IMG/VR virus record: IMGVR_UViG_3300044675_005311
Span: 1 to 64,000 of that record
From: a virus
Strand: one strand, 5' to 3'
DNA: 64,000 bases
The notes under the pieces were generated by a model that saw only the letters and a list, made by a program, of their open reading frames with translations, was not told the DNA's origin and made no database searches. Below are positions 18,238 to 63,686 of the stretch, piece after piece (the first letter of the stretch is position 1; each line of letters starts with the position of its first letter). The translations under genes and the position numbers were made by a program.

Positions 18238-21200
18238 ATGGTTAAAAAATATTTAAAGGGTGGCAAAAGCGAGGGTATGTCGCTAAGTGAAGTTGCAAAA
18301 GTTCACAATATGAATGCCGAGCAATTAAGACCCCAACTTCAAAAGGGAATTAAGCACGAACTTGAACACACGGACAAGATAACCGATGCACGAAGAATTG
18401 CCCTAGACCATTTGGTAGAGTTCCCCGATTATTACGACCGCTTGGATAAGATTGAAAAGATGCACTTGGGCGGTGATATGTCAAAACACTTAGCACCCAA
18501 CGGGAAACCTAGTAACCTTACACACGAGCAATGGCACTTGGTACGCACACCCGAATTTAAGAATTGGTTTGGGGATTGGGAAAACGACCCAAAGAACGCG
18601 AGTAAGGTTGTAGATGATAATGGTGAGCCGTTAGTGGTTTATAGAGGGGATAATGCCAATGCTAAAAAAGGATTTGTTTTCAAAACGGGTTTCAATAGAA
18701 TGGGATTTATTAATAAAGATAGATTGCCTAATCAATATTTCCATTATTTTGTAAACAACTATGATGTGGCTTTAGGTTATGGGCAAAATCAAATAGAAAG
18801 CCATAACGAAAAAGTTGAGGAAACGGGGAAAGGTAAATTGTGGGAAGCAAAAGTGACACCTTACTTTTTAAATATTCGGAATCTAATAGATATTACGCCT
18901 AATAATCCATCATTTCCCACTTTTAAAGAATTTGAGAATGAATTAAAAAATGAAATGGGGGAAGAGTGGTTTCAACATTGGAAATATCAACACCCTTATA
19001 ATTATGGAACACGAATAAGCAATAGTTATTTGAATAAATTGTTTGAAGACAAGTTGGGTAAAGATTATTTAGAAGATAGGTACATTTCTAAATGGCAAAA
19101 GGAAGGATTCGCAAATAATAAAACAAATAAAGATTCATATGAATTTTTTATTGAATTTAAAAATAGGAGTTCTTCTAGCGATATTCTTAATAAAGTAGTT
19201 CGTAGTATGTTAGAAAAGAATGTTGATGGTCTTGTGTTTTTGGAATTAACTCATTGGGATGGTGGATTTTGGGGCAATTATAAAAAATATGAATCGGGGG
19301 AATTAAAATATGATTACAAAAGATGGATAGAAAAGCCAAAAGTGTTTGCGACTTTAAATTCCAATCAAATCAAGTTAGCCGATGGCACGAACACTACATT
19401 CGATGGTGAGAACCTCGATATTAGATATAAGCGTGGTGGACGCACAATATCGCAAACACCCGCACCCAAGTCGGATAGAGTCGTTGGTAGCAAAACAAAC
19501 CCAAAAGGGAGTGCTAGTGATAGTAAACTAGGGAAATCAATTAAGTTCAACGATAGCCTAGAAAAAGCCATCCAAAACAAAGTGGATGCGTATAACGAAA
19601 AGCATTCGAGCGACAAAGTGAGTTTGTCAACGGCTAAAGCGATTGTAAGGCGCGGTATGGGTGCATATTCGACATCACATAGACCAACCATAAGCGGAGG
19701 TGCGCCTAATAGTCGCCAAGCGTGGGGATTGGCTAGATTGAATAAGTTCTTGCTAAAAAAGGCGGGAGTGAAAGTGAAAAGTGCTTATATTCAAGATGAT
19801 GATTTGTTGAAGTACGCCAATGGTGGCGAAGTAGTCGCAAAAAATGAGGATATTCGTAGTAATTTTAATACAATGGACAAAGAAGTAAAACACACTATGG
19901 GAAAAGCGGGTGGCTATTTAGTTGGTCGTCGTCACACCGAAGGCGGTATAAAGGCAATGAACAAAGCAACGGGACAACCTTTGGAAATGGAGGGCGGTGA
20001 AGTTGTAATCACGCGCAATGCCGTGTCGGATTCAAAGACGAGAGAGTTTGAAGGGCAAATGCTAACAAACCGCGAAATTTTGTCAAAAATCAACGAGAGT
20101 GGTGGTGGTGTTTCTTTTGAAGACGGCGGTGAGGTGATGGTATGTGGCAACCAATACAACTATGGGGGTACTCTTATGTCCGACCACGATATATTGCATC
20201 AAATGGCCGTTGGTGGCGAATTAGATGATATGAATGAAATGGAGTTTGAGTATGGCGGTGATGTATCGGATTTCAAACTAAAGAATAAGATTGTATTTCC
20301 AATCAACGATGTAGATAGCGCATATTATGTAAACATTTTTGAAGACCCTATGGACTTACAAATATTTAAGGTTGATGTAAGCGTTAGAGGTAGTGGAAGA
20401 CCTATTTTTAAGGGATTTACAAAATGGTCAAAAGATGAGTTCGTATCGAAGAGAAGTTATCAATTCTACAACCGAAAAGATTTTTTGACTCTCATTGAAC
20501 CGCAGGCGCAGACTTATGGGGTGATAACTCCAAGACCATTTACCCAAATACCAAAAAAATCTATGCTTATACCTAGGATGCCAAATACGAGGGCTATGTA
20601 TGATAGGTTTACTTCAATTTTGGACGTTGGGATGCAAAATGTGCCATCTCAATATAATACCGACGCTAAAACTAAATTTAATTGGCTTCTTGGTAATCCT
20701 ACTTTCCAAGAGAATATTATCGAGTTTTTTGATGAGTGGGCAATACAAGAGCCGAACTTTATTTATGAAGAGGGTGTCAAAAAGAAAGTTGTCCGCGCTA
20801 AAAAAGAAGATAAGTTCCAATATGGTATTGAGTCTATAAAGTTTGGTAAAAGTTGGGAGGATGAATTGAAGCCTTACAACAATAAACTTGTAAAGAATGA
20901 TGGTCAAAATTCATTGGTAAATTTACTTACAAAAGTAATTAAAGAATTTTATCTAACCGATTTAACTAATCCTAATTTAAAATTATATGAAGATAGGACG
21001 ATGGAAATACCCGTAAAAGAATTATCATTAATTCAAAAAAATGGGGGTGTTAAAATGGATTATGGTATAACGGCGGTTGGTTTGCGTAATATAGAAATGA
21101 GAACCACCGACCCCACAAGAAATAAATTACTTAATAAAAAATCGGGTTACAATATTAAATTAGTCATAGATAATATTGAAGATTTAGGTGGCGCAAATAT

Positions 21201-22908
21201 TTATTACTACCTATTTGATAAAATGGGTTATCAATATGGTAGCGGGGAATCTACTTGGCAACAATGGTTTAAAAATGACAATATTGATTTTAACATAAAA
21301 CTTTCTTTGGATGACTATTGTAGGGTGGTTGGGTATCTTTTGGCTAGATATTGTTATGAAAATGATTTACCCTCTATAAGACCAATATACAATATATCCG
21401 AAGAGCCTTTGATGATTGAGGATGTAAAAAATGTATTGGAATTTGATGACACGGATTTAAACGTATATCAAGGGAGTCAATTTGGAGCGTGGCTTGCCAT
21501 TTGTGTGCTTTATTATAGAGCCAATTATGTGAGCCAAACATCAAAGGCTAAAACGAGCGCGGATGTCCGTATTGCCCAAAGTTTGAAAGTTGGTGATAAG
21601 GTTGAAATTTCCGAGCAAGAAATGAATGCAATTGGTTTTGATGGATTAGATGAGAATGGCGAATTGTTGAAAGGAGAGGTAATTGGAATCCGTTCCGTAC
21701 CCGCAATGATGCGACCCGTAAATCCCGAAGGCAAAATGTACACGATTCGGTATTATGTACAAGACCCCAATGGGACTCTTAAAAACGATTGGGAGGGCAA
21801 AGATTTGGTATTGCTAGAGCCTAGTGATGTTGTACAATTGGAAGGAGAGCCAACGAGTACTAAAAAACAACCCGTTGGTAAAAACAAAAAAGCCTTGGGT
21901 AACTTGAGTGAGTTGGATAAAAATATTTACGACTTGCAATATCTTATTTCAATGACTTCGGATTTTGACTTTGAGGTAAAGTTACAATTACGTCAACAAT
22001 TGACCGAGTTCCAAAAGTTGAAAGATATTATGTATGCTTCCGAAAATTCCGAACAATTGATGAAGACTACAAGTCCTAATTATGACGGCAAATACGCGGT
22101 CGCCATTATTGAAACGATGTTTAATGCCGATAGTATCACGCTAGATGAAAGACCCAACTATTCACTTCCTAAAGCGGATGGATTTCAACCCAATGGCAAC
22201 GAAACTTTATTGAATCAAACCAACTTCAATCTTATTCAAACACCAATGTTCAAAGAGTGGTTCGGTGATTATTTGAATGCGTATGATTTCAAAGGATTGA
22301 GCGGTTATGATAATATCATTCCCGTAAGTAAAACATTGACGGATGGGTATGAGCCATTGGTCGTTTATCAAGGATTAGGGAGGGTGTTTGAAAGACAAAG
22401 GTTTGACTCTTTCCCAACTTCTTATTTTGCGGTGAATCCCAATTATGCGGAATGGTTTGCAACTACAAAAGGACAACGCACTCAAACCGATGGGTATGTG
22501 CTACCTTTCTTTTTGAATGTTAGAAACCCTTTAGATTTTACCTATTTTGGAATTGACAAAGTAGCACCGAAAGACTTCTTTGATTACCTATTTGTCAAGA
22601 CGGGTCAAACACCCGAACAACTAGGATTTGATGCTAGGTTCTTGCAACCAAATGTGCCACCGATGGAAATATGGGCATATATTAGAAACTCCCCAAATGC
22701 AATTACGGCTATTGCAAAGCAAGGTATTTACGATGGATTTCATTTTTATGAAAATAACCCACAAGCGAGTGGCAATCAATATCAAACCGAAGTATGGACT
22801 ACGTTCTTTTCAAATCAAGCAAAACTTGCAAGTGACCAACGAAGCAAAATGTTATATTCCGCCAACCAAGGTTTCTTAATGGCTAAAGGAGGCTTAGTAA
22901 AAAAATAA
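18238..22908 (+). CDS. 1556-aa polyvalent protein: DUF5661-like, ART-PolyVal x2, DUF5824-like and other modules separated by xxxGG linkers
   Basis: GIKHELEHT..IALDHL..PDYY; PNG...FKNWFGDW...SKVVDDNGEPLVVYRG and PNG...FKEWFGDY...EPLVVYQG; RRGMGAY..SHRP...WGLARLNKF; GRRHTEGGI...EMEGGE. Confidence 0.8.
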   Translation: MVKKYLKGGKSEGMSLSEVAKVHNMNAEQLRPQLQKGIKHELEHTDKITDARRIALDHLVEFPDYYDRLDKIEKMHLGGDMSKHLAPNGKPSNLTHEQWHLVRTPEFKNWFGDWENDPKNASKVVDDNGEPLVVYRGDNANAKKGFVFKTGFNRMGFINKDRLPNQYFHYFVNNYDVALGYGQNQIESHNEKVEETGKGKLWEAKVTPYFLNIRNLIDITPNNPSFPTFKEFENELKNEMGEEWFQHWKYQHPYNYGTRISNSYLNKLFEDKLGKDYLEDRYISKWQKEGFANNKTNKDSYEFFIEFKNRSSSSDILNKVVRSMLEKNVDGLVFLELTHWDGGFWGNYKKYESGELKYDYKRWIEKPKVFATLNSNQIKLADGTNTTFDGENLDIRYKRGGRTISQTPAPKSDRVVGSKTNPKGSASDSKLGKSIKFNDSLEKAIQNKVDAYNEKHSSDKVSLSTAKAIVRRGMGAYSTSHRPTISGGAPNSRQAWGLARLNKFLLKKAGVKVKSAYIQDDDLLKYANGGEVVAKNEDIRSNFNTMDKEVKHTMGKAGGYLVGRRHTEGGIKAMNKATGQPLEMEGGEVVITRNAVSDSKTREFEGQMLTNREILSKINESGGGVSFEDGGEVMVCGNQYNYGGTLMSDHDILHQMAVGGELDDMNEMEFEYGGDVSDFKLKNKIVFPINDVDSAYYVNIFEDPMDLQIFKVDVSVRGSGRPIFKGFTKWSKDEFVSKRSYQFYNRKDFLTLIEPQAQTYGVITPRPFTQIPKKSMLIPRMPNTRAMYDRFTSILDVGMQNVPSQYNTDAKTKFNWLLGNPTFQENIIEFFDEWAIQEPNFIYEEGVKKKVVRAKKEDKFQYGIESIKFGKSWEDELKPYNNKLVKNDGQNSLVNLLTKVIKEFYLTDLTNPNLKLYEDRTMEIPVKELSLIQKNGGVKMDYGITAVGLRNIEMRTTDPTRNKLLNKKSGYNIKLVIDNIEDLGGANIYYYLFDKMGYQYGSGESTWQQWFKNDNIDFNIKLSLDDYCRVVGYLLARYCYENDLPSIRPIYNISEEPLMIEDVKNVLEFDDTDLNVYQGSQFGAWLAICVLYYRANYVSQTSKAKTSADVRIAQSLKVGDKVEISEQEMNAIGFDGLDENGELLKGEVIGIRSVPAMMRPVNPEGKMYTIRYYVQDPNGTLKNDWEGKDLVLLEPSDVVQLEGEPTSTKKQPVGKNKKALGNLSELDKNIYDLQYLISMTSDFDFEVKLQLRQQLTEFQKLKDIMYASENSEQLMKTTSPNYDGKYAVAIIETMFNADSITLDERPNYSLPKADGFQPNGNETLLNQTNFNLIQTPMFKEWFGDYLNAYDFKGLSGYDNIIPVSKTLTDGYEPLVVYQGLGRVFERQRFDSFPTSYFAVNPNYAEWFATTKGQRTQTDGYVLPFFLNVRNPLDFTYFGIDKVAPKDFFDYLFVKTGQTPEQLGFDARFLQPNVPPMEIWAYIRNSPNAITAIAKQGIYDGFHFYENNPQASGNQYQTEVWTTFFSNQAKLASDQRSKMLYSANQGFLMAKGGLVKK

Positions 22909-22911
22909 ATT

Positions 22912-25308
22912 ATGTTACTAGATAAAAACAATATCGAGTCGGCTATCGTATCGTACACCCTTGATGGGTTTTCAATGACGGCGAAAGTATGGACTTATGA
23001 CAACAAGGCTACAATTTTTGTTCTTGACAAAGACGCAAAGTATAATCAAGACTTTTACTATGTCCTCAAGGGCGGTGCGCCCGATGCGGGAACTAGCGTT
23101 GAATCACTAAATGCCGAGGTATTTAGCAATCCATTTGATGCGTATAATAGGTTTCAAGATTTATTGAATGAGCAAGATTCTCAAACGCCACCACCGCCAC
23201 CACCACCCGAAGACCAAAAGATACCAATTATCTTAAAGACCAAAAAGACCAACGAATTTGAAATTCGCGAAGTTAATGGTTTAATGGAGGTCGGTGATGA
23301 TGTCTTGGGTAATGGATTTATTCAAGAAGACAAAAAAATAAATTTCAAAAGTGAAGATGTTTTTGAAACTCAAATTTTTATTGCGGGGGAATCTACGGAG
23401 GCGATATTAATTAAAGCACCTCAATTAGATACTAATGGTAAGGATGCTTATTTTCTTATCCCAAAACAACCACAACCGCCCGAACCACAAACAATACTTC
23501 TTAAAAACCCTACTACGAACGAAGTTCAACTTAGAGAGGTGAATGAGAGTGGCGTTGTCGGTACTCAAAATATGGGTAATGGTTTCATTGTTGACCCTAC
23601 CCTAATTAACCTTGCTAGTGAGGACACGTTTACAACTCAATTGTACGTTGGGGGACAACCTATGGATGTTACGTTGATTAGAAATGCGTCGATGGACACA
23701 AATGGTATGGATGCTTATGTGATGTCACAATCACCACCACCACCACCACCACCGCCAAAACAAACTATTGTATTAAAGAATCCTACTACCAACGAAGTTC
23801 AACTTAGAGAGGTTGATGAAAATGGTGTAGTGGAAAGTCAAAATATGGGTAATGCTTTCATTGTTCAACCAATGAGGATGGACTTAGCAAGTGAGGACAC
23901 GTTTACTACTCAATTATATTTTGCGGGACAACCGATGGATGTTAATTTAGTTAGAAACGCATCATTTGACACGGATGGTATGGATGCCTATATGATGTCC
24001 GAAACACCACCACCCGAAGAGAAAAATGTAATTCTAAAAAACCCTCTTACAAATGAAGTTCAAATTCGTGAGGTCGATGATAACAATGTCGTAAGTAACC
24101 AAATCAAAGCAAACGGATTTTTACTAGCACCAAGTCGCGTTAATTTAAGTAGCGACCCCACTTTTCAAACTCAATTGTATGTAAATGGACAACCAAGCGA
24201 TGTAGAATTGGTTAGAACGCCATCGTTCGACACCGATGGTATGGATGCTTATTCAATATCCGCAACTCCTCCACCCGAAGAGAAAAATGTAATTCTAAAA
24301 AACCCATTATCAAATCAAGTCCAAATTCGCGAGGTAGATGATAACAATGTCGTTAGCAATCAAATCAAAGCAAACGGATTTATCGTTCAAAATGGAGTTA
24401 TGAGATTGGCTAGCGAGAATCAATTTGACACTCAATTGTATATCAATTCACAATCCAATGATGTCAAGTTGGAAAGAACGCCATCGCTTGACACCGATGG
24501 TATGGATGCCTATCTTGTAGCAAGCAATGAAAAAACTAGCATTATCTTAAAAAATCCCGCCACTAATGAAGTTCAAATTAGGGAAGTTGATGAAGATGGT
24601 AATGTTACAAATGAAATTTTGGGTAATGGATTTATCGTACAACCAATGAGAACACCGCTTGTTAGTGAAGATGAATTTGACACCCAATTATATATCAATG
24701 GTCAATCTAGTGATGTAAAATTGATTAAATCTTCGTCGTTTGATACCGATGGTTTGGATGCTTATCTTATCGAAGGTGATGGTGAGCCGAAAGAGAAAAA
24801 GCGTACAATTTTATTGAAAGATAAAACAACGAATGAGGGTCAATTTAGGGAATTACAAGAAGATGGCGAGATAGGTAATGATATTTTAGCACAAGCATTT
24901 ATTACCCAACCAAACCGAATGAATCTTGCAAGTGAAGACCGATTTGAAACGCAATTGTATGTGCAAGGTGAAACTTTGGAAGCGGTTTTAATCAAAAATA
25001 CACTTTACGACAAAGATGGTATGGATGGTTATTCGGTTATGGTAGAGGGAGATAAAAAAGACCCTACGGGGAAAAGTGGAGGCCCTCCACCCGATATTGA
25101 AAATGAAATTTTAAGCGATAGGGTTCGTATTATAAGTGAAGTAAGTGGTATTGACCAAGATATAGTAAAAAATAACTTTAGAAATGTTAATTTAGCGGTG
25201 AATTTCTTATCGGGAATAAATTTCAAAGAATTGCAAAATCGTTTGAACACCGACAAGACCGCATACCAATTAGCGCAAGAGGTTGCACAAGAAATAAGAA
25301 ATTCGTAA
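22912..25308 (+). CDS. 798-aa protein with 7 tandem ~85-90-aa beta-rich repeats and Pro linkers
   Basis: Repeat consensus IILKNPxTNEVQIREVDx...NGFI...L.SED.F.TQLY..GQ...V.L.R..S.DTDGMDAY. Confidence 0.85.
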   Translation: MLLDKNNIESAIVSYTLDGFSMTAKVWTYDNKATIFVLDKDAKYNQDFYYVLKGGAPDAGTSVESLNAEVFSNPFDAYNRFQDLLNEQDSQTPPPPPPPEDQKIPIILKTKKTNEFEIREVNGLMEVGDDVLGNGFIQEDKKINFKSEDVFETQIFIAGESTEAILIKAPQLDTNGKDAYFLIPKQPQPPEPQTILLKNPTTNEVQLREVNESGVVGTQNMGNGFIVDPTLINLASEDTFTTQLYVGGQPMDVTLIRNASMDTNGMDAYVMSQSPPPPPPPPKQTIVLKNPTTNEVQLREVDENGVVESQNMGNAFIVQPMRMDLASEDTFTTQLYFAGQPMDVNLVRNASFDTDGMDAYMMSETPPPEEKNVILKNPLTNEVQIREVDDNNVVSNQIKANGFLLAPSRVNLSSDPTFQTQLYVNGQPSDVELVRTPSFDTDGMDAYSISATPPPEEKNVILKNPLSNQVQIREVDDNNVVSNQIKANGFIVQNGVMRLASENQFDTQLYINSQSNDVKLERTPSLDTDGMDAYLVASNEKTSIILKNPATNEVQIREVDEDGNVTNEILGNGFIVQPMRTPLVSEDEFDTQLYINGQSSDVKLIKSSSFDTDGLDAYLIEGDGEPKEKKRTILLKDKTTNEGQFRELQEDGEIGNDILAQAFITQPNRMNLASEDRFETQLYVQGETLEAVLIKNTLYDKDGMDGYSVMVEGDKKDPTGKSGGPPPDIENEILSDRVRIISEVSGIDQDIVKNNFRNVNLAVNFLSGINFKELQNRLNTDKTAYQLAQEVAQEIRNS

Positions 25309-25325
25309 AAAGTAAAAAAACACAA

Positions 25326-26717
25326 ATGGATAATCAATCAAACATAGCGAGATTAGAGGATTTGGCAAAAAATTCTCCCGTTCCTTTAGTTCGTGAACAA
25401 GCACAAAAAGAATTAGACAAACTTGCCTCCATAGGTAGCGTTCAAGTTCAATCCGTAAATGCGGGTGTAACGGGTTTAGACCCCGATGTACAAGCCGTTT
25501 TGGATGCCTTGAATATGGCCGTGCAAGGGGGTGGAGTAGCCAACATCAATGATATTCGCCAAGTCGTAATAGATGAGTTAGCAAAACGAAAAATCAATTT
25601 CAATGATTTGTCCGATAGCCTTAAAGCATTGCTTAATTCTACTCGTAAAGTAGAATTGACCATTCGTAATATTGCCTCGGTTCAAACTACCACAACGACA
25701 AGTAATGATTTCTTGACGCGTCCTATCATTCAAAAGATTTTGAGTGATATGCAAGCGGAGAACAACGTGTATTTGTATGGTGGCGCGGGTACGGGAAAGA
25801 CATTTAGTGCGGGGGGTATTGCCAAATTGTTGGGTTGGTCAATCATTACAATCAATTGTAACCAATTTACATCGCCAATTGATATTATCGGTGGTCAAAC
25901 CATTGATGGTTATCAAGAGGGTAAATTCACTATGGCGTGGTCGAATGAAATTATTGACGACAACGGCAATATGAAAAAAGTAGATGGTTGCGTATTGCTA
26001 TTGGATGAGTTGCCAAAAATTGACCCCAACACGGCGGGTTTGTTGAACGAAGGTTTAGCCAAAATCAAAGAATACGACTATGACCCGAATACGGGTACAC
26101 GAATTCCTCCAAGCATTTTGAATGGTAGGGGCGAGAGAAAATACTTGGGTAATTGTTTCATAATGGCTGCGGGTAACGTACCACTAAATACCATTGACCC
26201 CGATTACGAAGCCAACTTTAAGCAAGATTTGTCTTTGCAAGATAGATTCATCGGTAGTACATATAAAGTGTTTGTGGATTACTCTTATGAGTTTAGTTCA
26301 ATTATGAAAGGTTATGCGTTCATTTGGATTTTTGGCACAAAACTTCGTGAGGCTATCATTCGTTTGAATGCAACAAACCAAGCGTTTGTTTCTATTCGTT
26401 TGATGCAAAACTTAAAGGCTACTTATGATGTTTATCGTATTGAAAAAGAGAAAAATGATAAGGGTATGGCGACGACAATTACAAGCCCGAAAACAATCAT
26501 AGACTCTCTTAATACTTTCTTTGAATTGTTCAAACCATCCACCCGTTCCGCACTATTAGCCGAATTGGATATTGACGGATTTAAGCGCGTTGTAGCCGAA
26601 AAAGATAAAATGCCGTTTGACAAAAAAGCACCTGACTTTAACACCCCATCGGAGGTGCAAGAGGCACAACAAATGATTTCCAATTACGAAGCGACACAAC
26701 TTTCTAGAGTTATCTAA
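25326..26717 (+). CDS. MoxR/CobS-like AAA+ ATPase
   Basis: Walker A GGAGTGKT, Walker B LLLDELPK, sensor AAGN, R-finger QDRF. Confidence 0.85.
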   Translation: MDNQSNIARLEDLAKNSPVPLVREQAQKELDKLASIGSVQVQSVNAGVTGLDPDVQAVLDALNMAVQGGGVANINDIRQVVIDELAKRKINFNDLSDSLKALLNSTRKVELTIRNIASVQTTTTTSNDFLTRPIIQKILSDMQAENNVYLYGGAGTGKTFSAGGIAKLLGWSIITINCNQFTSPIDIIGGQTIDGYQEGKFTMAWSNEIIDDNGNMKKVDGCVLLLDELPKIDPNTAGLLNEGLAKIKEYDYDPNTGTRIPPSILNGRGERKYLGNCFIMAAGNVPLNTIDPDYEANFKQDLSLQDRFIGSTYKVFVDYSYEFSSIMKGYAFIWIFGTKLREAIIRLNATNQAFVSIRLMQNLKATYDVYRIEKEKNDKGMATTITSPKTIIDSLNTFFELFKPSTRSALLAELDIDGFKRVVAEKDKMPFDKKAPDFNTPSEVQEAQQMISNYEATQLSRVI

Positions 26718-28366: not shown

Positions 28367-28384
28367 AAAATATAATTAAACACT

Positions 28385-28696
28385 ATGGAAATTACCCAAG
28401 TACAAGAATTAGGATTAAAAAAGTTGATGGCAAATATTGCCACATTTTCTAATCTATATGGTAGCATTACCAATTTGATGATAATGACCAACCCAAGTTT
28501 TTCCACATCAATTTTTGTGAAATATGATAAGCAATTTGGATTGGTAAAAGATAGAAGGCTAGAAATAAACATTGTCGAAATAAACGATAGGGGTGAAATT
28601 GTGGTTTTGAACGATGTATTTAAAGGGATATATGAGCGGTACACATTCTTAGGTGAGTGCTTACCGATTGAAGCAAACGAACTAATTGTAATGTAA
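28385..28696 (+). CDS. hypothetical protein
   Basis: 103-aa ORF coupled to the next gene. Confidence 0.7.
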   Translation: MEITQVQELGLKKLMANIATFSNLYGSITNLMIMTNPSFSTSIFVKYDKQFGLVKDRRLEINIVEINDRGEIVVLNDVFKGIYERYTFLGECLPIEANELIVM

Positions 28697-30480: not shown

Positions 30481-30484
30481 ACCG

Positions 30485-47566: not shown

Positions 47567-47568
47567 CA

Positions 47569-48724: not shown

Positions 48725-48725
48725 T

Positions 48726-49400: not shown

Positions 49401-49407
49401 AAACGAA

Positions 49408-49992: not shown

Positions 49993-49993
49993 G

Positions 49994-51051: not shown

Positions 51052-51551
51052 TGAAAGCGGACAAAGTATTACTAGTAGTCGGTGCGGGACTTGCGGGTGC
51101 TACAATCGTGCGATATATCTATCGTAACGTGTTACTAGCAAACCAATGGGATTATAGCGTTGATGGGTTTGTATTGACCCAAATAGTTCCCCAAGCGCAA
51201 GGTATCGTATATCTTACATTCATCAATAAGAGTAACTTTAAAGCGGTTATCAAAGACATTGATGTAAAGGTGTTCACCAACAATGCGCAAATCGGTTCTA
51301 TTACCGAACCCAATGAAACCACTATCGAACCAAACGGCAAGTCAAGGGTTAAATTAACTTTATCTTTTGACCCAAAGTCGGTATTGAACAATTGGCGTTC
51401 TTTAATAGCAAGTGCATTGACTACCAAGGATGTTCCTTTAGATTTTGTTGGTACGTTCAAGGTTAAGACGTTATTCGGATTCACCGCTATTCCTATTCGT
51501 TTTTCAACAACGGGAAAAGAGTTGAAGTCGCTTTACGATACTTATTATTAA
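51051..51551 (+). CDS. membrane-anchored LEA_2-like beta-sandwich protein
   Basis: N-terminal TM; LTFINKSNF...IG.I.....IEPNGKS.V.L; ATG 51051. Confidence 0.65.
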   Translation: MKADKVLLVVGAGLAGATIVRYIYRNVLLANQWDYSVDGFVLTQIVPQAQGIVYLTFINKSNFKAVIKDIDVKVFTNNAQIGSITEPNETTIEPNGKSRVKLTLSFDPKSVLNNWRSLIASALTTKDVPLDFVGTFKVKTLFGFTAIPIRFSTTGKELKSLYDTYY

Positions 51552-51589: not shown

Positions 51590-51991
51590 ATGTTAGGAGA
51601 AATGTTTGGAGGTAAGATTGCAAATGACTTTGTTAAAGGCATCAAGTCAATTGCAAAAACCCACGAAGTAGAGTACACAAATGTTCAAATCCGTTTGACC
51701 TTTAGTGGAAATGAGGAAAGTCCAATCAAGTATGAAAAATGCTTAGAATGGCAACCAAAAGGTGAAGTCACCTACAAGCGCATAATGAATATCAATATGG
51801 ACTTGTTGGGGCAAGAGAATATGGTTACTCCGATTATTCTACAAAGTATGGTTAAGCAAGGCGAAGAGAATGAAATAGACCCAAGTGAATTGAGTGTCTA
51901 TCTTTTTGCAAAGGATGAGAAAATAGGTGTTGCGATATTCAAAGGGTTAACTCACGTTAAAGTATGCCCTATCGCAAAACTATTTGAATAA
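51590..51991 (+). CDS. hypothetical protein
   Basis: 133-aa ORF after TATATTTG (51557-51564). Confidence 0.7.
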   Translation: MLGEMFGGKIANDFVKGIKSIAKTHEVEYTNVQIRLTFSGNEESPIKYEKCLEWQPKGEVTYKRIMNINMDLLGQENMVTPIILQSMVKQGEENEIDPSELSVYLFAKDEKIGVAIFKGLTHVKVCPIAKLFE

Positions 51992-51992
51992 T

Positions 51993-58562: not shown

Positions 58563-58883
58563 ATGACTATCCCACAAAACATAAAAGAGGGTTTGATTAT
58601 CGTCGGCATAGTTGTCGTCGGTCTTTGGATTTTATTGCCCAAAGCCAAAAAAGGAATCAACTCACCTAAAGTTGCGGATGACAAAAAGTTAAAAGACATC
58701 GACAACGCGAAAGTGGTGTTGGATGCTTACTTGAATGCGGTTGAAGCGGGAGAGCGTAAATCCGAATTAGACAAATTAAACTCAATCTTTGCCGATGAAT
58801 ATGGGTTGCGTGTTTTCCGTACAAAAGACGGAAAGTATGTAGCGCGTACATCTAGCGGTAAGGATGTATTAATGACGAAGTAA
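58563..58883 (+). CDS. single-pass membrane protein
   Basis: GLIIVGIVVVGLWILLPKAKK. Confidence 0.7.
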   Translation: MTIPQNIKEGLIIVGIVVVGLWILLPKAKKGINSPKVADDKKLKDIDNAKVVLDAYLNAVEAGERKSELDKLNSIFADEYGLRVFRTKDGKYVARTSSGKDVLMTK

Positions 58884-59332
58884 TGGCAACCACTATTGCA
58901 CCTATAATTAACGTGGCCACGTCGCCTATTGTAAGCGTTACGGGGGCAAGTGGTGTTTCATACGATAGCATTAACAATTCTATTGGTATGTCGATGTTCT
59001 ATAAGGTCAATTCTATTTACCAATACGCGACTAACCTACAACAATTGCTATCGCCCGTTGTATTAAAGAAGTTTGACAAAGTAGGTAATAGACAAAATAC
59101 GACCTTGCAAATGACGATTGACCCGTATCAAGACCAAGCATCGTTGACACAAGAAATGTTGGGTTACAATTACGCGTTTGATAGTAACAATGCTTTCTTT
59201 CCTTTTATCTTGGCAAATACGACTGTGAATTACCAAATCAAAGTAACGGAACTCACGGCAAGTCAATTTTTATCGGGTGCTAGTAACTTCGATAACATCG
59301 AGTTTCTACAAGATTACATTAATGATTTTTAA
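58883..59332 (+). CDS. paralogue of the C-terminal two-thirds of the capsid candidate (minor capsid/penton-like)
   Basis: Shares V(S/T)Y, QLL, D..GN, TIDPYQ.Q, Y.Y..D, ILA.TTVN with 43039..43740. Confidence 0.75.
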   Translation: MATTIAPIINVATSPIVSVTGASGVSYDSINNSIGMSMFYKVNSIYQYATNLQQLLSPVVLKKFDKVGNRQNTTLQMTIDPYQDQASLTQEMLGYNYAFDSNNAFFPFILANTTVNYQIKVTELTASQFLSGASNFDNIEFLQDYINDF

Positions 59333-59693: not shown

Positions 59694-59960
59694 ATGCCGA
59701 CTAACACATTTCAAGGATTCAACGCTTCGGATGTAACGCCAAGCGATTCAACGAACATTACTCTCGGTGGTACAATCATCGATGGACTTGACAATGGTGT
59801 TTGTTTGTATGTTGGTTCGGGCGGTGACATCAAAGTCACAATGATAGGCGGTCAAACAGTGACTTTTGCAAACGTACCAAATGGTTCTTTTTTACCCATT
59901 CAAGTAAACAAGGTATTTGCAACGGGAACGGGTGCTAGTGACATATTAGCACTATATTGA
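59694..59960 (+). CDS. head/vertex spike base protein (RcGTA Rcc01079-like)
   Basis: VTPSD...LYVGSGGDIKV.M.GG..VTF.NVP.GS.LPIQV.KV.ATGT.AS.I.AL. Confidence 0.75.
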   Translation: MPTNTFQGFNASDVTPSDSTNITLGGTIIDGLDNGVCLYVGSGGDIKVTMIGGQTVTFANVPNGSFLPIQVNKVFATGTGASDILALY

Positions 59961-59961
59961 T

Positions 59962-60114
59962 ATGCCTATCGTAATAGGAATGGGAAACGCTATTGGGTGG
60001 ACATCCGTTGATGCGGATGCCCCCTTAGAGTTTAGTTTCCTTTTATGGCAAGAAACCGCCGATTTTCTCCTCATTGATAGTGGGGGAGGAAGGATATTGC
60101 TATTTAACCCATAA
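59962..60114 (+). CDS. 50-aa putative spike adaptor (not in ORF track)
   Basis: MPIVIGMGNAIGW...FLLWQETADFLLIDSGGGRILLFNP, between spike base and fibre. Confidence 0.6.
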   Translation: MPIVIGMGNAIGWTSVDADAPLEFSFLLWQETADFLLIDSGGGRILLFNP

Positions 60115-60140
60115 TACTATCGCTTAATTAAGAAAAGAAA

Positions 60141-63100
60141 ATGAGTACTAACAAAACCATTGGTGGACTTTCCGTCCTATCAAGTGCTAATATAAAAGGA
60201 TGCTATTCGTTACCCGTATGGAATAGTGATGCGGAAACTACACAAAGCGCGTGTATTACGGATATTCTAGCGGGTGTATCTTCAATTTATACATTAGGAA
60301 GCGGGACTTGTTCTTCGCTTCGTTGTGGGGTAAGCAACACCGCAAGTGGTAATTACTCGGCATCGTTAGGAGGTCGTTTGAATTGCGCTACGGGAGTATT
60401 CTCTTCGGTTGTTGGTGGTTGTGCAAACAAGTCAATAGGTTACGGCTCTTCTATTGGAGGTGGTGTAAATAATTGTGTTTCACTTGCTTGTTATTCAACA
60501 ATTGGTGGAGGAGTAAATAATTTTATAAATATTCCATATGGAACTTCTACGGGGTCATTTATTGGGGCGGGTTCGGGAAATACCATTTGTTCAAATTGTG
60601 CTTTTATTGGCGGGGGGTCGGGAAATGTAGTAACAGGTAATGATGGTTTTCAAGTCATTACGGGGGGGCAAAATAATAATATTAACGCAGCGGGATATTC
60701 TTTTATTGGTAATGGATTGTCTAATAGCATTGCGGGTGGCGGATTAGGATTTAATGTTATTGGAGGGGGAAGAACTAATACCGCAAGTGGTGGGTATGCC
60801 CTAATTACTGGTGGTTTATCAAATACCGCCACGGGAATTTCGTCCGCTATTTTAGGAGGAGGAAGTAACACCGCAAGTGGTGCTTGTTCAATCGTTGGTG
60901 GTGGTAATATTAACTGTGCTACATCAAATTGGTCATCAGTAGTAGGAGGGGAAAATAACAGGGCTACGAATTCATTATCTTCTGTTGTAGGCGGATTTGG
61001 AAATATTGCATCAGGTTATGCAAGTTCAATAAGTGGTGGAGTAAGTAATAATACAACTTGTCATAATTCTTTTATTGGTAATGGTAAATTAAATACTGCA
61101 AGTAATTATTATGCAGCAGTAGTAGGAGGATGCGGTAATATAGCATCGGGTAATAGTTCAATAATTGCAGGTGGTCGTTGTAACGTAACTACGGGGTCAT
61201 TTTCGGGAATTTTAGCGGGTCAATTAAATTGCGCCACAAATTCTTGGTCATCGGTTTTAGGTGGTTGTAACAATTGCGCCACGGGAGTATTCTCATCGGT
61301 AGTTGGCGGTTGTGGAAACCAAGCCACGGGTTATGGTAGTTTTGTTGGGGGTGGTATAAGTAACTGCGCCACGGGTCAATGTTCAACTGTATTGGGTGGT
61401 TTTTGCTCTAAAGCCACGGGAGATTGTTCTACGGCATTAGGAGTTCAATCTTGTGCTACAAGTCTTAGTAATGCCTTTGGTATTCAAGCAAGGGCAACGG
61501 GATTTAATTCATTGGCAATAGGAACTTCTGCTAGTGCTACAAGTACGGGTGGTGTTGCTTTAGGTATTAATGTTCAGACCGCAAGTGGCATAGCAATAGG
61601 GTCTAGTGCGTTATCAAGCGGTTTGGGTTCAATTGCAATAGGTGAATCAACAGCATCAGGGGGTTGTGCGGTTGCAATAGGTGCTTTCAACTGTGCAACT
61701 GGACTAGGTGCATTAGTTATTGGAGGTAATTGCAACAAAGCCCTTGGTTCTCCATATAGTTCCGTAACGGGCGGTTTTTCAAATTGCGCGGTTGGTTGTT
61801 TGTCTTTCATTGGCGGTGGTCGTAACAATTTAGCGTGTGGCGTTTGTTCTTTCATAGGAGGTGGTCACGATAATACGACTACGGGTCGTGATAGCGGTGT
61901 GGCGTTTGGTCATACTAACATTGCGGGTGGATGTTGTTCGGCGGTTTTAGGAGGTAATAACAATTGCGCGTGTGGAATTAGGTCAATCGTTGTAGGAGGA
62001 TTTTCAAACGCTTCTACTTGTGATGATTCGGTTGTTGTTGGCGGTTATGATAATTTATCAAGTGGGGCGGAAAGTTTTGTAGGCGGTGGTTGTGTAAACC
62101 AAGCAACAAACAATTGGTCATCCGTTTTAGGCGGTTGTGTTAACTGCGCCACGGGAGTATTCTCATCGGTAGTAGGTGGTTGTGGGAATAGAGTAAGCCA
62201 ATATGGTGGATTTGTTGGAGGAGGTATTGGAAATAATGTGTGCCTTGTTTATACTGCTGATTTAGGACTAGGTAATCAAGGCGTAATTGTCGGTGGTAAC
62301 AATAATACAGTTTGTAGATTTGGAGGAATCCTTACGGGGAATACTAATAGTGTATATAACGGAGGTGTTGTTTTACAAGGTTCAAATAATTTTGCACAAA
62401 ATGGTGGAACAGTGTTAAGCGGGTATTCAAGTTGTGCAAATGGAGGTAATAGCATCGCAAATGGTCAATGTGTTTGTGCATTGGGAGGTTTTAGCATTGC
62501 AAATGGTTTATTGTCAACCGCAAGTTGTAATTATTCTTTTGCTTGGGGTAGAAATCAATCGGCAAGTTGTAAATCAATGGCTTTTGGTGGATTTAATACC
62601 GCGAGTGGTTGTTATTCTATTGCCTTAGGAGGCGCATTTTCACAAGGACATCAAGTAACGGGAAATTATAGTAATGTAGTTGGGGGTCAAAATAATTGCA
62701 CTACAAATACATATACATCGGTATTAGGTGGATGTGGTAATACGGCATCGGCATACGCTTCAAGTGTATTGGGTGGATATGGAAATATCGCTTGTGGTTG
62801 TTTTTCATCAACGATAGGTTCAAATTCTTTGGCTTACTTATATGGTCAAAACGCTTTGGCAAGTGGTCAATTTAGTGCTAGGGGTGATGCTCAATCTTCT
62901 ACATTGATAAGTCGTAGGTCGGCGGGTTCTTTAACAAGTGGTGCGACTATGACACTTTCGTTGGATGGAACGGGTACTACCAACTTAATTATTCCACCAA
63001 CGGGTAAAACTTGGGCGGTAAAAATTCAATATGCATCGAGAGTAGTAGGTGTTTCGGGTTCGGCTACGGGTGTTACCAACAACGATAGTAAAACACAAAC

Positions 63101-63326
63101 ACAAGAAATTGGTGTTAAAAACATCGGTGGCGTGACTACAATCCTTTCGGGTTCTCCTAACAATGGTATAGCCCTTGAAGACCCAAGTATGAACACGGCA
63201 TCTATGAGTTATAGCGTAGGCGGAAGTAATGAAATAGTAATGACGTTCACCGCCCCAATATTTGCGGGTGGCGGAAGTTTGACTATAAAAGCGGTTGCAA
63301 CATTAAGTATCACGGAGGTTCTATAA
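60141..63326 (+). CDS. 1061-aa Gly/Cys-rich fibre/spike protein (beta-solenoid repeats)
   Basis: Dozens of ~15-aa S.(V/I).GG..N.A.G repeats, Cys-rich; globular C-terminal domain. Confidence 0.8.
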   Translation: MSTNKTIGGLSVLSSANIKGCYSLPVWNSDAETTQSACITDILAGVSSIYTLGSGTCSSLRCGVSNTASGNYSASLGGRLNCATGVFSSVVGGCANKSIGYGSSIGGGVNNCVSLACYSTIGGGVNNFINIPYGTSTGSFIGAGSGNTICSNCAFIGGGSGNVVTGNDGFQVITGGQNNNINAAGYSFIGNGLSNSIAGGGLGFNVIGGGRTNTASGGYALITGGLSNTATGISSAILGGGSNTASGACSIVGGGNINCATSNWSSVVGGENNRATNSLSSVVGGFGNIASGYASSISGGVSNNTTCHNSFIGNGKLNTASNYYAAVVGGCGNIASGNSSIIAGGRCNVTTGSFSGILAGQLNCATNSWSSVLGGCNNCATGVFSSVVGGCGNQATGYGSFVGGGISNCATGQCSTVLGGFCSKATGDCSTALGVQSCATSLSNAFGIQARATGFNSLAIGTSASATSTGGVALGINVQTASGIAIGSSALSSGLGSIAIGESTASGGCAVAIGAFNCATGLGALVIGGNCNKALGSPYSSVTGGFSNCAVGCLSFIGGGRNNLACGVCSFIGGGHDNTTTGRDSGVAFGHTNIAGGCCSAVLGGNNNCACGIRSIVVGGFSNASTCDDSVVVGGYDNLSSGAESFVGGGCVNQATNNWSSVLGGCVNCATGVFSSVVGGCGNRVSQYGGFVGGGIGNNVCLVYTADLGLGNQGVIVGGNNNTVCRFGGILTGNTNSVYNGGVVLQGSNNFAQNGGTVLSGYSSCANGGNSIANGQCVCALGGFSIANGLLSTASCNYSFAWGRNQSASCKSMAFGGFNTASGCYSIALGGAFSQGHQVTGNYSNVVGGQNNCTTNTYTSVLGGCGNTASAYASSVLGGYGNIACGCFSSTIGSNSLAYLYGQNALASGQFSARGDAQSSTLISRRSAGSLTSGATMTLSLDGTGTTNLIIPPTGKTWAVKIQYASRVVGVSGSATGVTNNDSKTQTQEIGVKNIGGVTTILSGSPNNGIALEDPSMNTASMSYSVGGSNEIVMTFTAPIFAGGGSLTIKAVATLSITEVL

Positions 63327-63329: not shown

Positions 63330-63686
63330 ATGCCCACCAAGGAAATAAATATAAGTGTCACCAACACCCAAGCGTACACAACGCAAATTTCTATCTTTGG
63401 TGGGCCACAAGACCCGAATAAAAATAGTGTCAATGCGTTCACGTCTTACACTTGGGACACCAACTTAGTAAACTTTTCGGCAAACTATTCATTTACAATT
63501 GAATCTAAGCGTTCTTTTGAGCCAACATTCACAATCATAGAGGGAACTATGAGAAACTCTTTCCTAGGACTTGTGTATGGCTTAAATCAATTAAATATTG
63601 GTATGTTTTGGTACGACACGGCTAGTAGTACAATATATGCTAGTTCGGATGCGTTCGTATTTGGCAATTTGGTATTCCCCGTGTAA
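63330..63686 (+). CDS. beta-rich structural protein; N-terminus similar to the first strands of the capsid candidate
   Basis: INISVTNTQAYTTQISIFGG vs YIITVTNTGSAVSNFDILGS. Confidence 0.6.
   Translation: MPTKEINISVTNTQAYTTQISIFGGPQDPNKNSVNAFTSYTWDTNLVNFSANYSFTIESKRSFEPTFTIIEGTMRNSFLGLVYGLNQLNIGMFWYDTASSTIYASSDAFVFGNLVFPV

What the first reader, a model, noticed from the sequence alone, without database searches (positions are those of the whole stretch)
18238..63686. Large tailless, internal-membrane virus of Bacteroidota (Varidnaviria-like architecture, at least 64 kb)
Seen: the whole rightward morphogenesis region is inside the window, bounded by a convergent RecT-like gene, and no terminase, portal, HK97 capsid, tail tube/sheath or tape measure is recognisable. 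It contains a stand-alone 270-aa FtsK/HerA ATPase with the RH...Q signature, a beta-rich 233-aa capsid candidate, about 30 single-pass membrane proteins and vertex-type spikes. Established: PRD1/PM2/sphaerolipovirus-type viruses combine an A32/P9-like ATPase, jelly-roll capsid proteins and many small membrane proteins, but their genomes are roughly 10-30 kb. Inference: this is a much larger member of that architectural class, possibly an undescribed lineage.
Basis: partly seen in the sequence, partly recalled or inferred. Interest (0 to 1): 0.9.

Follow-up and report, generated by a model that had tools for sequence, protein, structure and literature searches.

The report
Large tailless membrane-type phage lineage
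This lake-water virus genome carries the DNA-packaging motor, a jelly-roll coat-protein candidate and the crowd of small membrane proteins that mark tailless, lipid-containing phages such as PRD1, but in a genome several times larger than theirs, and it has many uncultured relatives.

Summary
The core of the finding holds. The window is 64 kb of a 72.6-kb IMG/VR virus contig, about 86% complete. Its relatives run from 75 to 102 kb.

- **Gene order:** a conserved ~40-aa membrane protein follows the ATPase, then the 233-aa protein (43039-43740), then a run of single-pass membrane proteins. PRD1 and PM2 have the same order.
- **Tailed-phage hallmarks:** no terminase, portal or HK97 capsid was found on the contig or in four relatives, two of them at least 94% complete.
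- **Host:** a distant integrated relative sits in a Flavobacteriales chromosome.

Some details were wrong. Much of 18-64 kb is cargo, lysis or sugar and sulfate genes, not morphogenesis. 63330 is not a detectable paralogue. SSIP-1 (43.8 kb) already exceeds "10-30 kb".

Virion shape and lipid content remain inferred. The scan had noted this reading before only on this same genome, not on other DNA.

The parts
40884..41894 (+). Conserved 336-aa protein. The N-terminal half is acidic and low in complexity and the C-terminus is basic. Its stop overlaps the ATPase start. I read it as a candidate packaging or assembly accessory (inferred).
   Evidence: Sequence. No PHROG or Pfam family. Conserved at 30-39% identity in 9 of 15 distant MAG loci and 46-96% in 14 of 14 IMG/VR loci.
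41891..42703 (+). Stand-alone FtsK/HerA-superfamily ATPase of the B204/P9 kind. I read it as the candidate genome-packaging motor.
42879..43001 (+). Small (40-aa) single-pass membrane protein between the ATPase and the coat candidate. It holds the position of PRD1 P20 and PM2 P7.
   Evidence: ORF. A 31-54-aa hydrophobic ORF lies at the same place in 13 of 15 loci examined. PRD1 and PM2 gene order.
43039..43740 (+). 233-aa jelly-roll protein with an N-terminal helix and a disordered arm. I read it as the major capsid protein candidate.
   Evidence: AF2 pLDDT 82.8, above 90 for residues 55-200. Jelly-roll class matches. 1,697 homologues at E<=0.001 and 599 clusters at 50% identity. 73% identical to the G002 copy, second only to the ATPase.
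43767..43785 (+). Terminator-like hairpin with a T run just after the coat candidate.
   Evidence: This is a consensus scan only.
43819..51551 (+). Block of small single-pass membrane proteins, many anchored by a C-terminal helix. I read them as candidate virion membrane and membrane-capsid linker proteins.
   Evidence: 12 of 16 ORFs have one predicted TM. Most are conserved and syntenic in relatives.
46778..47566 (+). Conserved 262-aa protein with an HExxH motif. I read it as a candidate metalloprotease, possibly for maturation (inferred).
   Evidence: The HEFSH motif is seen in the sequence. No Pfam or PHROG family. 35-51% identical in 8 of 15 distant loci. 28% identical to the copy in the integrated Parvicellaceae element.
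38567..40063 (+). Two conserved membrane proteins and a PAP2-superfamily phosphatase at the head of the conserved block.
   Evidence: TM predictions. PAP2 at 6.8e-10, above the cut-off. Conservation.
51984..53762 (+). 592-aa beta-helix repeat protein, a spike or fibre.
   Evidence: PHROG 'virion structural protein' at 3.9e-63 and 'tail spike protein' at 3.2e-45.
58883..59332 (+). 149-aa paralogue of the C-terminal two thirds of the coat candidate. I read it as a candidate vertex (penton) protein or second capsid protein (inferred).
   Evidence: hhalign A1 against this protein: probability 95.7%, E 1e-8. Profile against profile: 96.7%, E 3.9e-10. HMM E 2.3e-11. Conserved in G002.
59694..63326 (+). 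88-aa fibre-associated protein and a 1,061-aa repeat-rich spike or fibre.
   Evidence: PHROG 12296 'tail fiber protein' at 1.5e-11. Weak YadA-head repeat match. Sequence.
63330..63686 (+). 118-aa beta-rich protein. In G002 its homologue directly follows the homologue of 58883. Its role is unknown.
   Evidence: for adjacency. No detectable relation to the coat family (probability 0.6%).
35556..38276 (+). Probable lysis cassette: a cell-wall enzyme candidate plus small membrane proteins.
   Evidence: PHROG 3000 at 2.5e-24. Weak YkuD match at 0.0078. TM predictions. In G002 the homologues sit together at 81.7-83.2 kb.
18238..34602 (+). Large polyvalent or effector-type proteins, probably delivered with the DNA (inferred). 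They are not capsid genes.
   Evidence: DUF5661 with ART-PolyVal, AAA_5 and RelA_SpoT. PHROG 30335.

Best explanation
The contig is most of the genome of a lytic bacterial virus, most likely of Bacteroidota. Its virion module is of the PRD1/STIV (Varidnaviria-like) type, not the tailed-phage type.

Proposed working:
- Small virus-encoded single-pass proteins load a patch of host cytoplasmic membrane.
- The 233-aa jelly-roll protein, with its N-terminal arm, builds an icosahedral shell around that membrane vesicle.
- The shorter paralogue (58883) and the beta-helix spikes occupy the vertices.
- The B204-like ATPase docks at one vertex through the small membrane protein encoded beside it and pumps the linear dsDNA into the preformed particle.
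- Large polyvalent effector proteins are probably packaged as well.
- Release is by a lysis cassette.

Shown here: the ATPase fold and its nearest structural neighbour; the jelly-roll fold class; the conserved gene order; the membrane-protein density; no detectable terminase, portal or HK97 capsid; the size and spread of the lineage.

Inferred: the capsid role of 43039, the internal membrane, the lack of a tail, the vertex roles and the packaging mechanism.
For: **ATPase**
- AF2 pLDDT is 90.7.
- B204 packaging NTPase is the top match: Foldseek E 5.3e-9 and TM 0.70 on the target, against 1.8e-5 for the next family.

**Gene order**
- The order ATPase, small TM protein, jelly-roll protein, TM proteins matches PRD1 (P9, P20, P3, P22) and PM2 (P9, P7, P2, P3...).
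- The small TM ORF is kept in 13 of 15 loci.

**Coat candidate**
- 43039 has a confident beta-sandwich model with jelly-roll matches that include viral capsid proteins.
- With the ATPase it is the most conserved gene: 73% and 75% identity to G002, and every other gene is 67% or lower.
- The family is large: 1,697 hits and 599 clusters at 50% identity.
- A paralogue lies beside the spike genes.

**Membrane proteins**
- 34% of ORFs have a TM segment, as in PRD1 (33%) and PM2 (32%). Two tailed phages give 16%.

**No tailed-phage hallmarks**
- 50 ORFs scanned against PHROGs and 7 Pfam hallmark families searched in six frames gave no TerL, portal or HK97 capsid in 0 of 5 records, among them G002 (100% complete) and G003 (94%).
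- G002 is collinear with this contig and adds only spike or fibre genes and small ORFs.

**Bacterial virus**
- RecT with a PD-(D/E)XK nuclease, RusA, Phg_2220_C and a lysis cassette are present.
- GATC, AGCT, CATG and CCGG are nearly absent.
- A roughly 50-kb integrated relative carries the ATPase, the coat family, a TM block, the HExxH protein and a tyrosine integrase. It lies between bacterial genes in a 2.27-Mb Parvicellaceae chromosome.
- SD-like motifs precede only 13 of 111 genes.
Against: - No sequence or profile link ties these proteins to PRD1, PM2 or SSIP-1 beyond the Walker A loop.
- The coat family also occurs as extra paralogues away from the ATPase. One is a tandem two-domain copy next to a glycosyltransferase and a polyvalent protein in a 102-kb relative. 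The domain is therefore not used only for shells.
- Two genes match PHROG families annotated as tail spike or tail fibre.
- The genome size and the polyvalent proteins are more usual for tailed phages.
- G000 is incomplete. Divergent HK97 capsids can escape HMMs. Only 2 of about 60 proteins in the block were folded.
- The membrane-density control rests on two tailed phages and a crude predictor.
- There are no virion, lipid or expression data.
Confidence: 0.65

Rival explanations
1. It is a tailed phage (Caudoviricetes) whose terminase, portal and HK97 capsid are too divergent to recognise, or lie on the missing part of the genome. The B204-like ATPase then serves another DNA-pumping role, and the jelly-roll protein is a fibre head or decoration protein.
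For: - The genome size of 72-102 kb suits a tailed phage.
- PHROG tail-spike and tail-fibre families match 51984 and 59694.
- Polyvalent proteins are present.
- The jelly-roll matches include C1q/TNF-like and fibre domains.
- G000 is only 86% complete.
Against: - No TerL, portal or HK97 family was found in 0 of 5 records, including records 100% and 94% complete.
- All 10 ORFs of 400 aa or more on G000 were scanned and none is terminase-like or portal-like.
- G002 adds no candidate.
- No tube, sheath, baseplate or tape-measure hit appeared among the 50 ORFs scanned.
- The ATPase and the jelly-roll protein are the two best-conserved genes and sit in PRD1/PM2 order.
Confidence: 0.13
2. It is a membrane-bearing virus or virus-like element of another shape: pleomorphic, vesicle-like or enveloped, with no icosahedral jelly-roll shell. 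The ATPase still loads or moves the DNA. The jelly-roll protein is a surface spike or a membrane-associated protein.
For: - The density of single-pass membrane proteins is high.
- Lipid-acting enzymes recur: PAP2 and two GDSL lipases here, and a patatin-like phospholipase in the integrated relative.
- The jelly-roll fold is not specific to shells.
Against: - The B204-type ATPase is known from icosahedral viruses that package into preformed shells, according to the PDB titles and the PRD1 annotation.
- The coat candidate's conservation, family size and position next to the ATPase fit a shell protein.
- As I recall, known pleomorphic prokaryotic viruses have far smaller genomes. I did not test this here.
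Confidence: 0.12
3. It is not a virus but a plasmid-like or conjugative mobile element. The ATPase and the membrane proteins form a DNA-transfer apparatus.
For: - A ParB-like gene is present.
- 28696 has faint Replic_Relax and wHTH hits below the cut-off.
- An integrated relative carries an integrase.
Against: - The ATPase is a compact 270-aa protein closest to B204. It is not an 800-aa VirB4 or a membrane-anchored coupling protein.
- No relaxase or T4SS family passed a cut-off among the ORFs scanned.
- A lysis cassette and spike proteins with phage virion families are present.
- IMG/VR holds the record as viral.
Confidence: 0.04

Closest known systems
STIV / STIV2 (Turriviridae) genome-packaging NTPase B204
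   Different: Sequence searches against PDB chains found no B204 match. This protein has an extra helical C-terminal part (residues 214-270) that falls outside the match. As I recall, STIV infects archaea, has a genome of about 17 kb and uses a double jelly-roll capsid protein. I did not test those points here.
PRD1 (Tectiviridae) and PM2 (Corticoviridae)
   Same: The gene order is the same: packaging ATPase, small membrane protein, major capsid protein, small membrane proteins. A penton-type small jelly-roll gene lies beside the spike genes. The share of ORFs with a TM segment is similar at 32-34%.
   Different: Their genomes are 14.9 and 10.1 kb, against at least 72.6 kb here. Profile comparison shows nothing beyond the Walker A loop. 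As I recall, their capsid proteins are double jelly rolls of 395 and 269 aa, whereas this one has a single domain. No protein-primed polymerase was found here.
Sphaerolipoviridae, Simuloviridae and Thermus phage P23-77 (single jelly-roll, two capsid proteins)
   Same: These are tailless icosahedral virions with an internal membrane, built from single jelly-roll capsid proteins. I took this from the abstracts of PMC12643093 and PMC12642351 as shown in the listing, and from passages of PMC6356626. This contig likewise has a single-domain jelly-roll candidate plus a shorter paralogue.
   Different: Their genomes are about 16-31 kb, according to the same abstracts. Their two capsid genes are adjacent (recalled), whereas here the paralogue lies 15 kb away beside the spikes. 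None of their capsid proteins appears among the listed structural matches, which is inconclusive.
[quoted passage not shown]
   Same: It is the largest comparable isolate I could fetch: a tailless, membrane-containing phage of a Bacteroidota-related host, with PRD1-type architecture and two capsid protein types (passages of PMC6356626). Its genome is 43,788 bp.
   Different: The coat and ATPase profiles hit nothing in its six-frame ORFs at E<1. Its genome is circular and about half the size. Its TM-ORF share is 23%, against 34% here.

Membership tests
Varidnaviria-type packaging ATPase (FtsK/HerA superfamily; A32 / PRD1 P9 / STIV B204 kind) | P-loop ASCE core with Walker A and Walker B motifs | tested here: met
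   GxKGxGK(S/T) and hhhhED are invariant across 47 family members. The model has the matching strand and helix order.
Varidnaviria-type packaging ATPase (FtsK/HerA superfamily; A32 / PRD1 P9 / STIV B204 kind) | Fold closer to a viral packaging ATPase than to cellular or conjugative relatives | tested here: met
Varidnaviria-type packaging ATPase (FtsK/HerA superfamily; A32 / PRD1 P9 / STIV B204 kind) | Sequence-profile membership in a curated family of such ATPases | tested here: inconclusive
   Pfam gives only generic or neighbouring families. Of 47 members, 44 match AAA_22, 38 match DUF87/HerA and 14 match Zot. The query itself scores 23.0 bits against a DUF87 cut-off of 23.2. hhalign against the single PRD1 and PM2 P9 sequences aligns only the Walker A region.
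Varidnaviria-type packaging ATPase (FtsK/HerA superfamily; A32 / PRD1 P9 / STIV B204 kind) | Encoded beside the major capsid protein and small membrane proteins of the packaging vertex | tested here: met
   (13 of 15 loci keep the small TM ORF).
Varidnaviria-type packaging ATPase (FtsK/HerA superfamily; A32 / PRD1 P9 / STIV B204 kind) | ATP-driven DNA translocation into a procapsid | not testable with these tools
   This needs biochemistry.
Vertical jelly-roll major capsid protein (Varidnaviria) | Eight-stranded jelly-roll beta sandwich | tested here: met
   The AF2 model has pLDDT above 90 over residues 55-200. Matches are to picornavirus VP3, comovirus, STMV, STNV, PBCV-1, FLiP and phiCjT23 capsid chains, and also to CBM and TNF/C1q domains.
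Vertical jelly-roll major capsid protein (Varidnaviria) | Specific structural kinship to a known single or double jelly-roll capsid protein of this realm | tested here: inconclusive
Vertical jelly-roll major capsid protein (Varidnaviria) | Two jelly-roll domains in one chain (Bamfordvirae type) | tested here: not met
   43039 has a single domain. Tandem two-domain members exist elsewhere in the family: P0130, P0197 and P0259. The one whose context I saw is an extra paralogue, not the gene next to the ATPase.
Vertical jelly-roll major capsid protein (Varidnaviria) | Forms pseudo-hexameric capsomers standing upright on an internal membrane | not testable with these tools
   This needs cryo-EM.
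Internal-membrane-containing phage | Many small virus-encoded membrane proteins in the structural module | tested here: met
   24 of 48 ORFs in 34.6-59.7 kb have a TM segment. The whole genome gives 34%, the same as PRD1 and PM2 and twice the share in two tailed phages.
Internal-membrane-containing phage | Lipid bilayer in the virion (chloroform sensitivity, low buoyant density) | not testable with these tools
   This needs particles.
Caudoviricetes (tailed phages) | Large terminase subunit | tested here: not met
   Terminase_6N, TerL_ATPase, Terminase_3 and Terminase_6C hit 0 of 5 records in six frames, and the controls gave positives. The only PHROG TerL hit is the 270-aa ATPase itself, at E 0.0027. 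An HMM miss cannot exclude a very divergent form.
Caudoviricetes (tailed phages) | Portal protein and HK97-fold capsid protein | tested here: not met
   Phage_portal, SPP1_portal and Phage_capsid hit 0 of 5 records. None of the 50 ORFs scanned against PHROGs matched. I did not test this at the fold level for most ORFs.
Conjugative type IV secretion element | VirB4-size ATPase, coupling protein and relaxase | tested here: not met
   The only such ATPase is 270 aa and closest to B204. No relaxase passed a cut-off.

The most novel reading that the evidence does not exclude
This is a family- to class-level, so far undescribed lineage of large (about 50-100 kb) tailless, internal-membrane phages of Bacteroidota. 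It is common in lakes and oceans.

- Its shell would be built from a single jelly-roll protein unrelated in sequence to any known capsid family.
- The same protein family has independently produced tandem two-domain forms. That would be a living example of the step from a single to a double jelly roll that is proposed for the origin of Bamfordvirae.
- The genomes may be linear with long inverted terminal repeats.
- They carry large polyvalent effector proteins, so a PRD1-like particle would be delivering a protein cargo. No such virus is known to do that.
Probability: 0.45. Interest if true: 0.9.

Novelty: new variant of a known kind. Interest (0 to 1): 0.78.

Why it matters
Known membrane-containing tailless phages are small. 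PRD1 is 14.9 kb, PM2 10.1 kb and SSIP-1 43.8 kb. They are thought of as minimal viruses.

If this reading is right, the same architecture carries genomes of 72-102 kb with DNA-modification, sulfation and effector cassettes. The lineage is large: the coat family has 599 clusters at 50% identity. This genome recurs in 22 lake or freshwater runs dated 2016-2025. Relatives occur in Tara ocean data. Yet neither hallmark protein matches any of 50,697 GenBank phage records.

That would widen the size range of prokaryotic Varidnaviria-like viruses. It would add a major group of non-tailed phages to aquatic viromes, which marker-based surveys for terminase, HK97 capsids or known double jelly-roll capsids would miss. 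It would also give a testable system for how jelly-roll capsids scale up and duplicate.

Tried and rejected
**Searches that found nothing**
- Nucleotide search of 40001-48000 against GenBank phages found no match.
- tblastn of the coat candidate and the ATPase against the same collection found no match.
- Sequence searches of the ATPase against PDB chains found nothing with a single sequence. With the profile they found only the ClpB P-loop region.
- hhalign of the ATPase profile against PRD1 P9 and PM2 P9 aligned only Walker A.
- HMMs of the coat and ATPase families hit nothing below E 1 in the six-frame ORFs of PRD1, PM2 and SSIP-1.

**Leads that gave little**
- The protein atlas gave unnamed clusters at 0.85 for the coat candidate. 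For 26717 it gave DUF7192 at 0.91. Both are leads only, and neither suggests a portal.
- I considered 63330 as the N-terminal partner paralogue of the coat protein and rejected it on present evidence (hhalign probability 0.6%).
- I considered 40884 (336 aa) as a double jelly-roll capsid and rejected it. Its sequence is low-complexity, helical and basic at the end.

**Oligomer test**
- Complex prediction with three copies of the coat domain gave no verdict (score 0.26, mark 0.42). This is no evidence either way.

**Genome ends**
- G000 has no direct or inverted terminal repeat.
- Laying contigs of 4 runs on the right end showed that 3 continue past it. G000 is therefore truncated, and its ends say nothing about topology.
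- No RNA holder was listed.

**Host**
- The MAG labels of 15 genome-contig hits span many phyla, including an archaeal bin. I treat most of them as binning noise. I rely only on the hit embedded in a 2.27-Mb chromosome.

**Literature**
- Four full-text searches listed no paper that describes this lineage. I read only listings and abstract starts, plus passages of PMC6356626.
- I did not ask for supplements. A census table in a supplement, for example of PMC5894146 or PMC9502842, could hold such contigs unseen.


Full report
**What the DNA is**

The window is bases 1-64000 of a single 72,652-bp contig. The tools hold it as an IMG/VR virus record, classed linear, with a CheckV completeness estimate of 86%. 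It has no terminal repeats. Contigs from 3 of 4 other lake-water runs continue past its right end, so it is truncated. Near-identical sequence is held by 22 lake or freshwater metagenome runs dated 2016-2025 (at least 70% of sampled words).

Relatives in IMG/VR are 74.7, 79.7, 84.4, 84.7 and 102 kb long. I fetched the 84,705-bp relative G002 whole (CheckV 100%). It is collinear with this contig from end to end. The main difference is a 23-kb stretch of spike or fibre genes that includes a 5,338-aa ORF.

**Checking the observation**

By one simple hydropathy rule (19-residue window, Kyte-Doolittle mean of 1.6 or more), 24 of 48 plus-strand ORFs between 34.6 and 59.7 kb have a predicted membrane helix. 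So do 12 of 16 between 43.8 and 51.6 kb, and many of these helices sit at the extreme C-terminus.

I ran the same ORF caller and rule on control genomes:

| Genome | ORFs with at least one TM segment |
|---|---|
| This contig | 34% |
| G002 | 33% |
| PRD1 | 33% |
| PM2 | 32% |
| SSIP-1 | 23% |
| Flavobacterium phage 11b (tailed) | 16% |
| Lambda (tailed) | 16% |

The enrichment is real. It rests on a crude predictor and only two tailed controls.

The region is not all morphogenesis:
- 18.2-34.6 kb encodes polyvalent or effector-type proteins: DUF5661 with ART-PolyVal, a MoxR-like AAA and a RelA/SpoT protein.
- 35.5-38.3 kb looks like a lysis cassette.
- 39981 is RusA.
- 54.3-57.7 kb carries a sulfotransferase, an APS kinase and an HNH endonuclease.

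**The ATPase**

Sequence methods say little:
- The query scores 23.0 bits on Pfam DUF87/HerA, against a cut-off of 23.2.
- Of 47 family members, 38 touch DUF87 and 14 touch Zot.
- PDB sequence searches find nothing useful.

The fold is decisive. An AlphaFold2 model built on 47 homologues has a mean pLDDT of 90.7. Its best match is the genome-packaging NTPase B204 of STIV2 and STIV:
- Foldseek gives E 5.3e-9 and TM 0.70 on the target. The next family, SIR2/HerA, is at 1.8e-5 and the Zot N-terminal domain at 3.0e-5.

So the protein belongs to the FtsK/HerA superfamily. Like B204, it is a compact stand-alone enzyme.

**The coat candidate**

The 233-aa protein has 1,697 homologues at E 0.001 or lower in the 90%-identity collection. 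In the exhaustive search it has 599 clusters at 50% identity, 309 of them at E 1e-10 or lower. None carries a Pfam domain or a name.

A model built on 117 sequences has pLDDT above 90 for residues 55-200. It shows an N-terminal helix, a disordered arm and then a beta sandwich with one interposed helix.

Structure searches give only class-level matches:
- Foldseek against the PDB finds no match better than E 1.0e-3. The list is led by picornavirus, dicistrovirus, comovirus and STMV coat proteins, mixed with CBM, TNF and C1q domains.
- The second look at Foldseek's own matches is similar.

The fold is therefore a jelly-roll sandwich, as predicted, but the fold alone does not show a capsid role.

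The role rests on context:
- With the ATPase it is the best-conserved gene: 73% and 75% identity to G002, with every other gene at 67% or lower. In distant MAG loci it is 39-66% identical where the ATPase is 47-57%.
- It is followed by a terminator-like hairpin.
- It sits in the same order as in PRD1 (P9, P20, P3, P22) and PM2 (P9, P7, P2, P3...).
- A small hydrophobic ORF of 31-54 aa lies between the ATPase and the coat gene in 13 of 15 loci examined. Here it is at 42879-43001.

**Paralogues**

Within the contig, the family HMM hits only 43039 (1e-98) and 58883 (2e-11). Profile against profile gives 96.7% probability and E 3.9e-10 over 115 columns. 58883 lies beside the spike genes and is conserved in G002. 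There it is directly followed by the homologue of 63330. 63330 itself shows no detectable relation to the family. A vertex or penton role for 58883 is my inference.

Some family members carry two full domains in tandem: P0130, P0197 and P0259. The one whose context I could see is an extra copy in a 102-kb relative, next to a glycosyltransferase and a polyvalent protein and away from the ATPase. This shows that the domain is versatile. It tempers the capsid argument while hinting at how double jelly rolls can arise.

**No tailed-phage hallmarks detected**

I scanned 50 ORFs against PHROGs. Further ORFs went against Pfam. All ten ORFs of 400 aa or more were included.

The only terminase hit is the 270-aa ATPase itself, at E 0.0027. 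The only tail-labelled hits are a beta-helix spike and an 88-aa fibre-associated protein.

Six-frame searches with Terminase_6N, TerL_ATPase, Terminase_3, Terminase_6C, Phage_portal, SPP1_portal and Phage_capsid found 0 of 5 records. The built-in controls were positive. G002 adds no ORF that could fill the gap. HMM misses cannot exclude extreme divergence, and I could fold only two proteins.

**Host and lifestyle**

- RecT with a PD-(D/E)XK nuclease, RusA, Phg_2220_C, a ParB-like gene and a lysis cassette mark a bacterial virus.
- SD-like motifs precede only 13 of 111 genes. TAnnTTTG motifs sit just upstream of several operon starts. From my own knowledge, both fit Bacteroidota.
- The genome-contig hits carry MAG labels from many phyla, which I discount.
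- One hit is embedded in a 2.27-Mb Parvicellaceae (Flavobacteriales) chromosome. It is a stretch of about 50 kb holding the ATPase (E 7e-79), a coat-family gene (E 3e-48), a run of single-pass membrane proteins, the HExxH protein, a patatin-like phospholipase and a tyrosine integrase. It is flanked by TPR-SpoIIE genes on one side and a cytochrome c assembly gene on the other.

That ties the wider lineage to Bacteroidota and shows that it has temperate members. The host of this particular contig is still inferred.

**Comparison with what is known**

It works like the PRD1, PM2, STIV and sphaerolipovirus class:
- a B204/P9-type ATPase;
- a jelly-roll coat;
- many virion membrane proteins;
- spikes at the vertices.

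It cannot be filed in any of their families:
- There is no sequence or profile link.
- The coat protein has one domain, not two.
- No protein-primed polymerase is present.
- The genome is about 2 to 7 times larger than SSIP-1, PRD1 and PM2.

Neither hallmark protein matches any of 50,697 GenBank phage records. Four literature searches listed no description of the lineage. I saw listings only, apart from passages of PMC6356626.

**Verdict**

The remaining doubt concerns the shell protein's identity and the virion's shape and lipid content, which only folding the whole block and looking at particles can settle.

I rate it a new variant of a known kind, at high interest. It would be a large, widespread and uncultured branch of membrane-containing tailless phages.

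Noticed in passing
whole contig (window 1-64000 and on to 72652); also G002: Short words are avoided to an extreme degree. Counting both strands, CAG/CTG occurs 106 times against 1,276 expected. GATC occurs 2 times against 395, AGCT 0 against 260, CATG 0 against 465 and CCGG 0 against 330. G002 also lacks the four palindromes entirely but has normal CAG/CTG.
   Followed up: partly
window 5403-16014: Left arm with Phg_2220_C, several glycosyltransferases including two TET-associated glycosyltransferase (TAGT) matches, a GDP-mannose dehydratase-type epimerase, and FkbM and C-methyltransferases. This could be a DNA hypermodification cassette or a glycan cassette.
   Followed up: no
window 16221-17786: A ParB-like protein (PHROG 12305, 1.8e-33), a tRNA-Met gene at 16996-17068 and a GNAT acetyltransferase.
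   Followed up: no
G002 (L017 1-489 and L021 end); G001 right end (L043): The last 50 nt of G002 are the exact reverse complement of its positions 440-489. The right end of G001 matches the reverse complement of G002 393-478 (92% over 86 nt). This looks like a partly assembled inverted terminal repeat of about 490 bp or more, so the genomes may be linear. No protein-primed polymerase was found.
   Followed up: partly
window 18238-34602: Seven large proteins of the polyvalent or effector type: DUF5661 with ART-PolyVal (1,556 aa), a MoxR-like AAA, a RelA/SpoT protein, and others with no family. 26717 has a DUF7192 lead.
   Followed up: partly
window 54282-57745: A cassette with a sulfotransferase, an APS kinase, a cytidylyltransferase-like protein and an HNH homing endonuclease sits inside the late region. 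It may sulfate or glycosylate the virion or the host surface.
   Followed up: no
window 39416-40063; L022 6958-8213 (contig 69958-71213); G007:C2 395615-396760: Lipid-acting enzymes recur in this lineage: a PAP2 phosphatase in the conserved core, two GDSL lipases, and a patatin-like phospholipase in the integrated relative.
   Followed up: no
P0130, P0197, P0259; L039 10001-11194: Some members of the coat family have two complete jelly-roll domains in tandem. One lies in a 102-kb relative next to a glycosyltransferase and a polyvalent protein.
   Followed up: partly
G002 52323-68339 (L019/L020): A single 5,338-aa ORF lies in the spike region of the 84.7-kb relative.
   Followed up: no
G007:C2 about 345000-398600 (L047-L050); also G007:C1 1378125-1378775: A prophage-like relative in a Parvicellaceae chromosome carries an integrase. 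Here the ATPase is 37 kb from the coat gene and on the other strand. A second coat-family gene lies on the other chromosome.
   Followed up: partly
window 43039-50785 (N-terminal or central parts of several proteins): By eye, an aromatic-x-N-A-D/x-G motif appears in the coat candidate's N-terminal arm (conserved 'ADG' in the family consensus) and in several neighbouring membrane proteins. The family HMM weakly touches 46295 there (E 0.034). It may be a shared processing or assembly signal.
   Followed up: no
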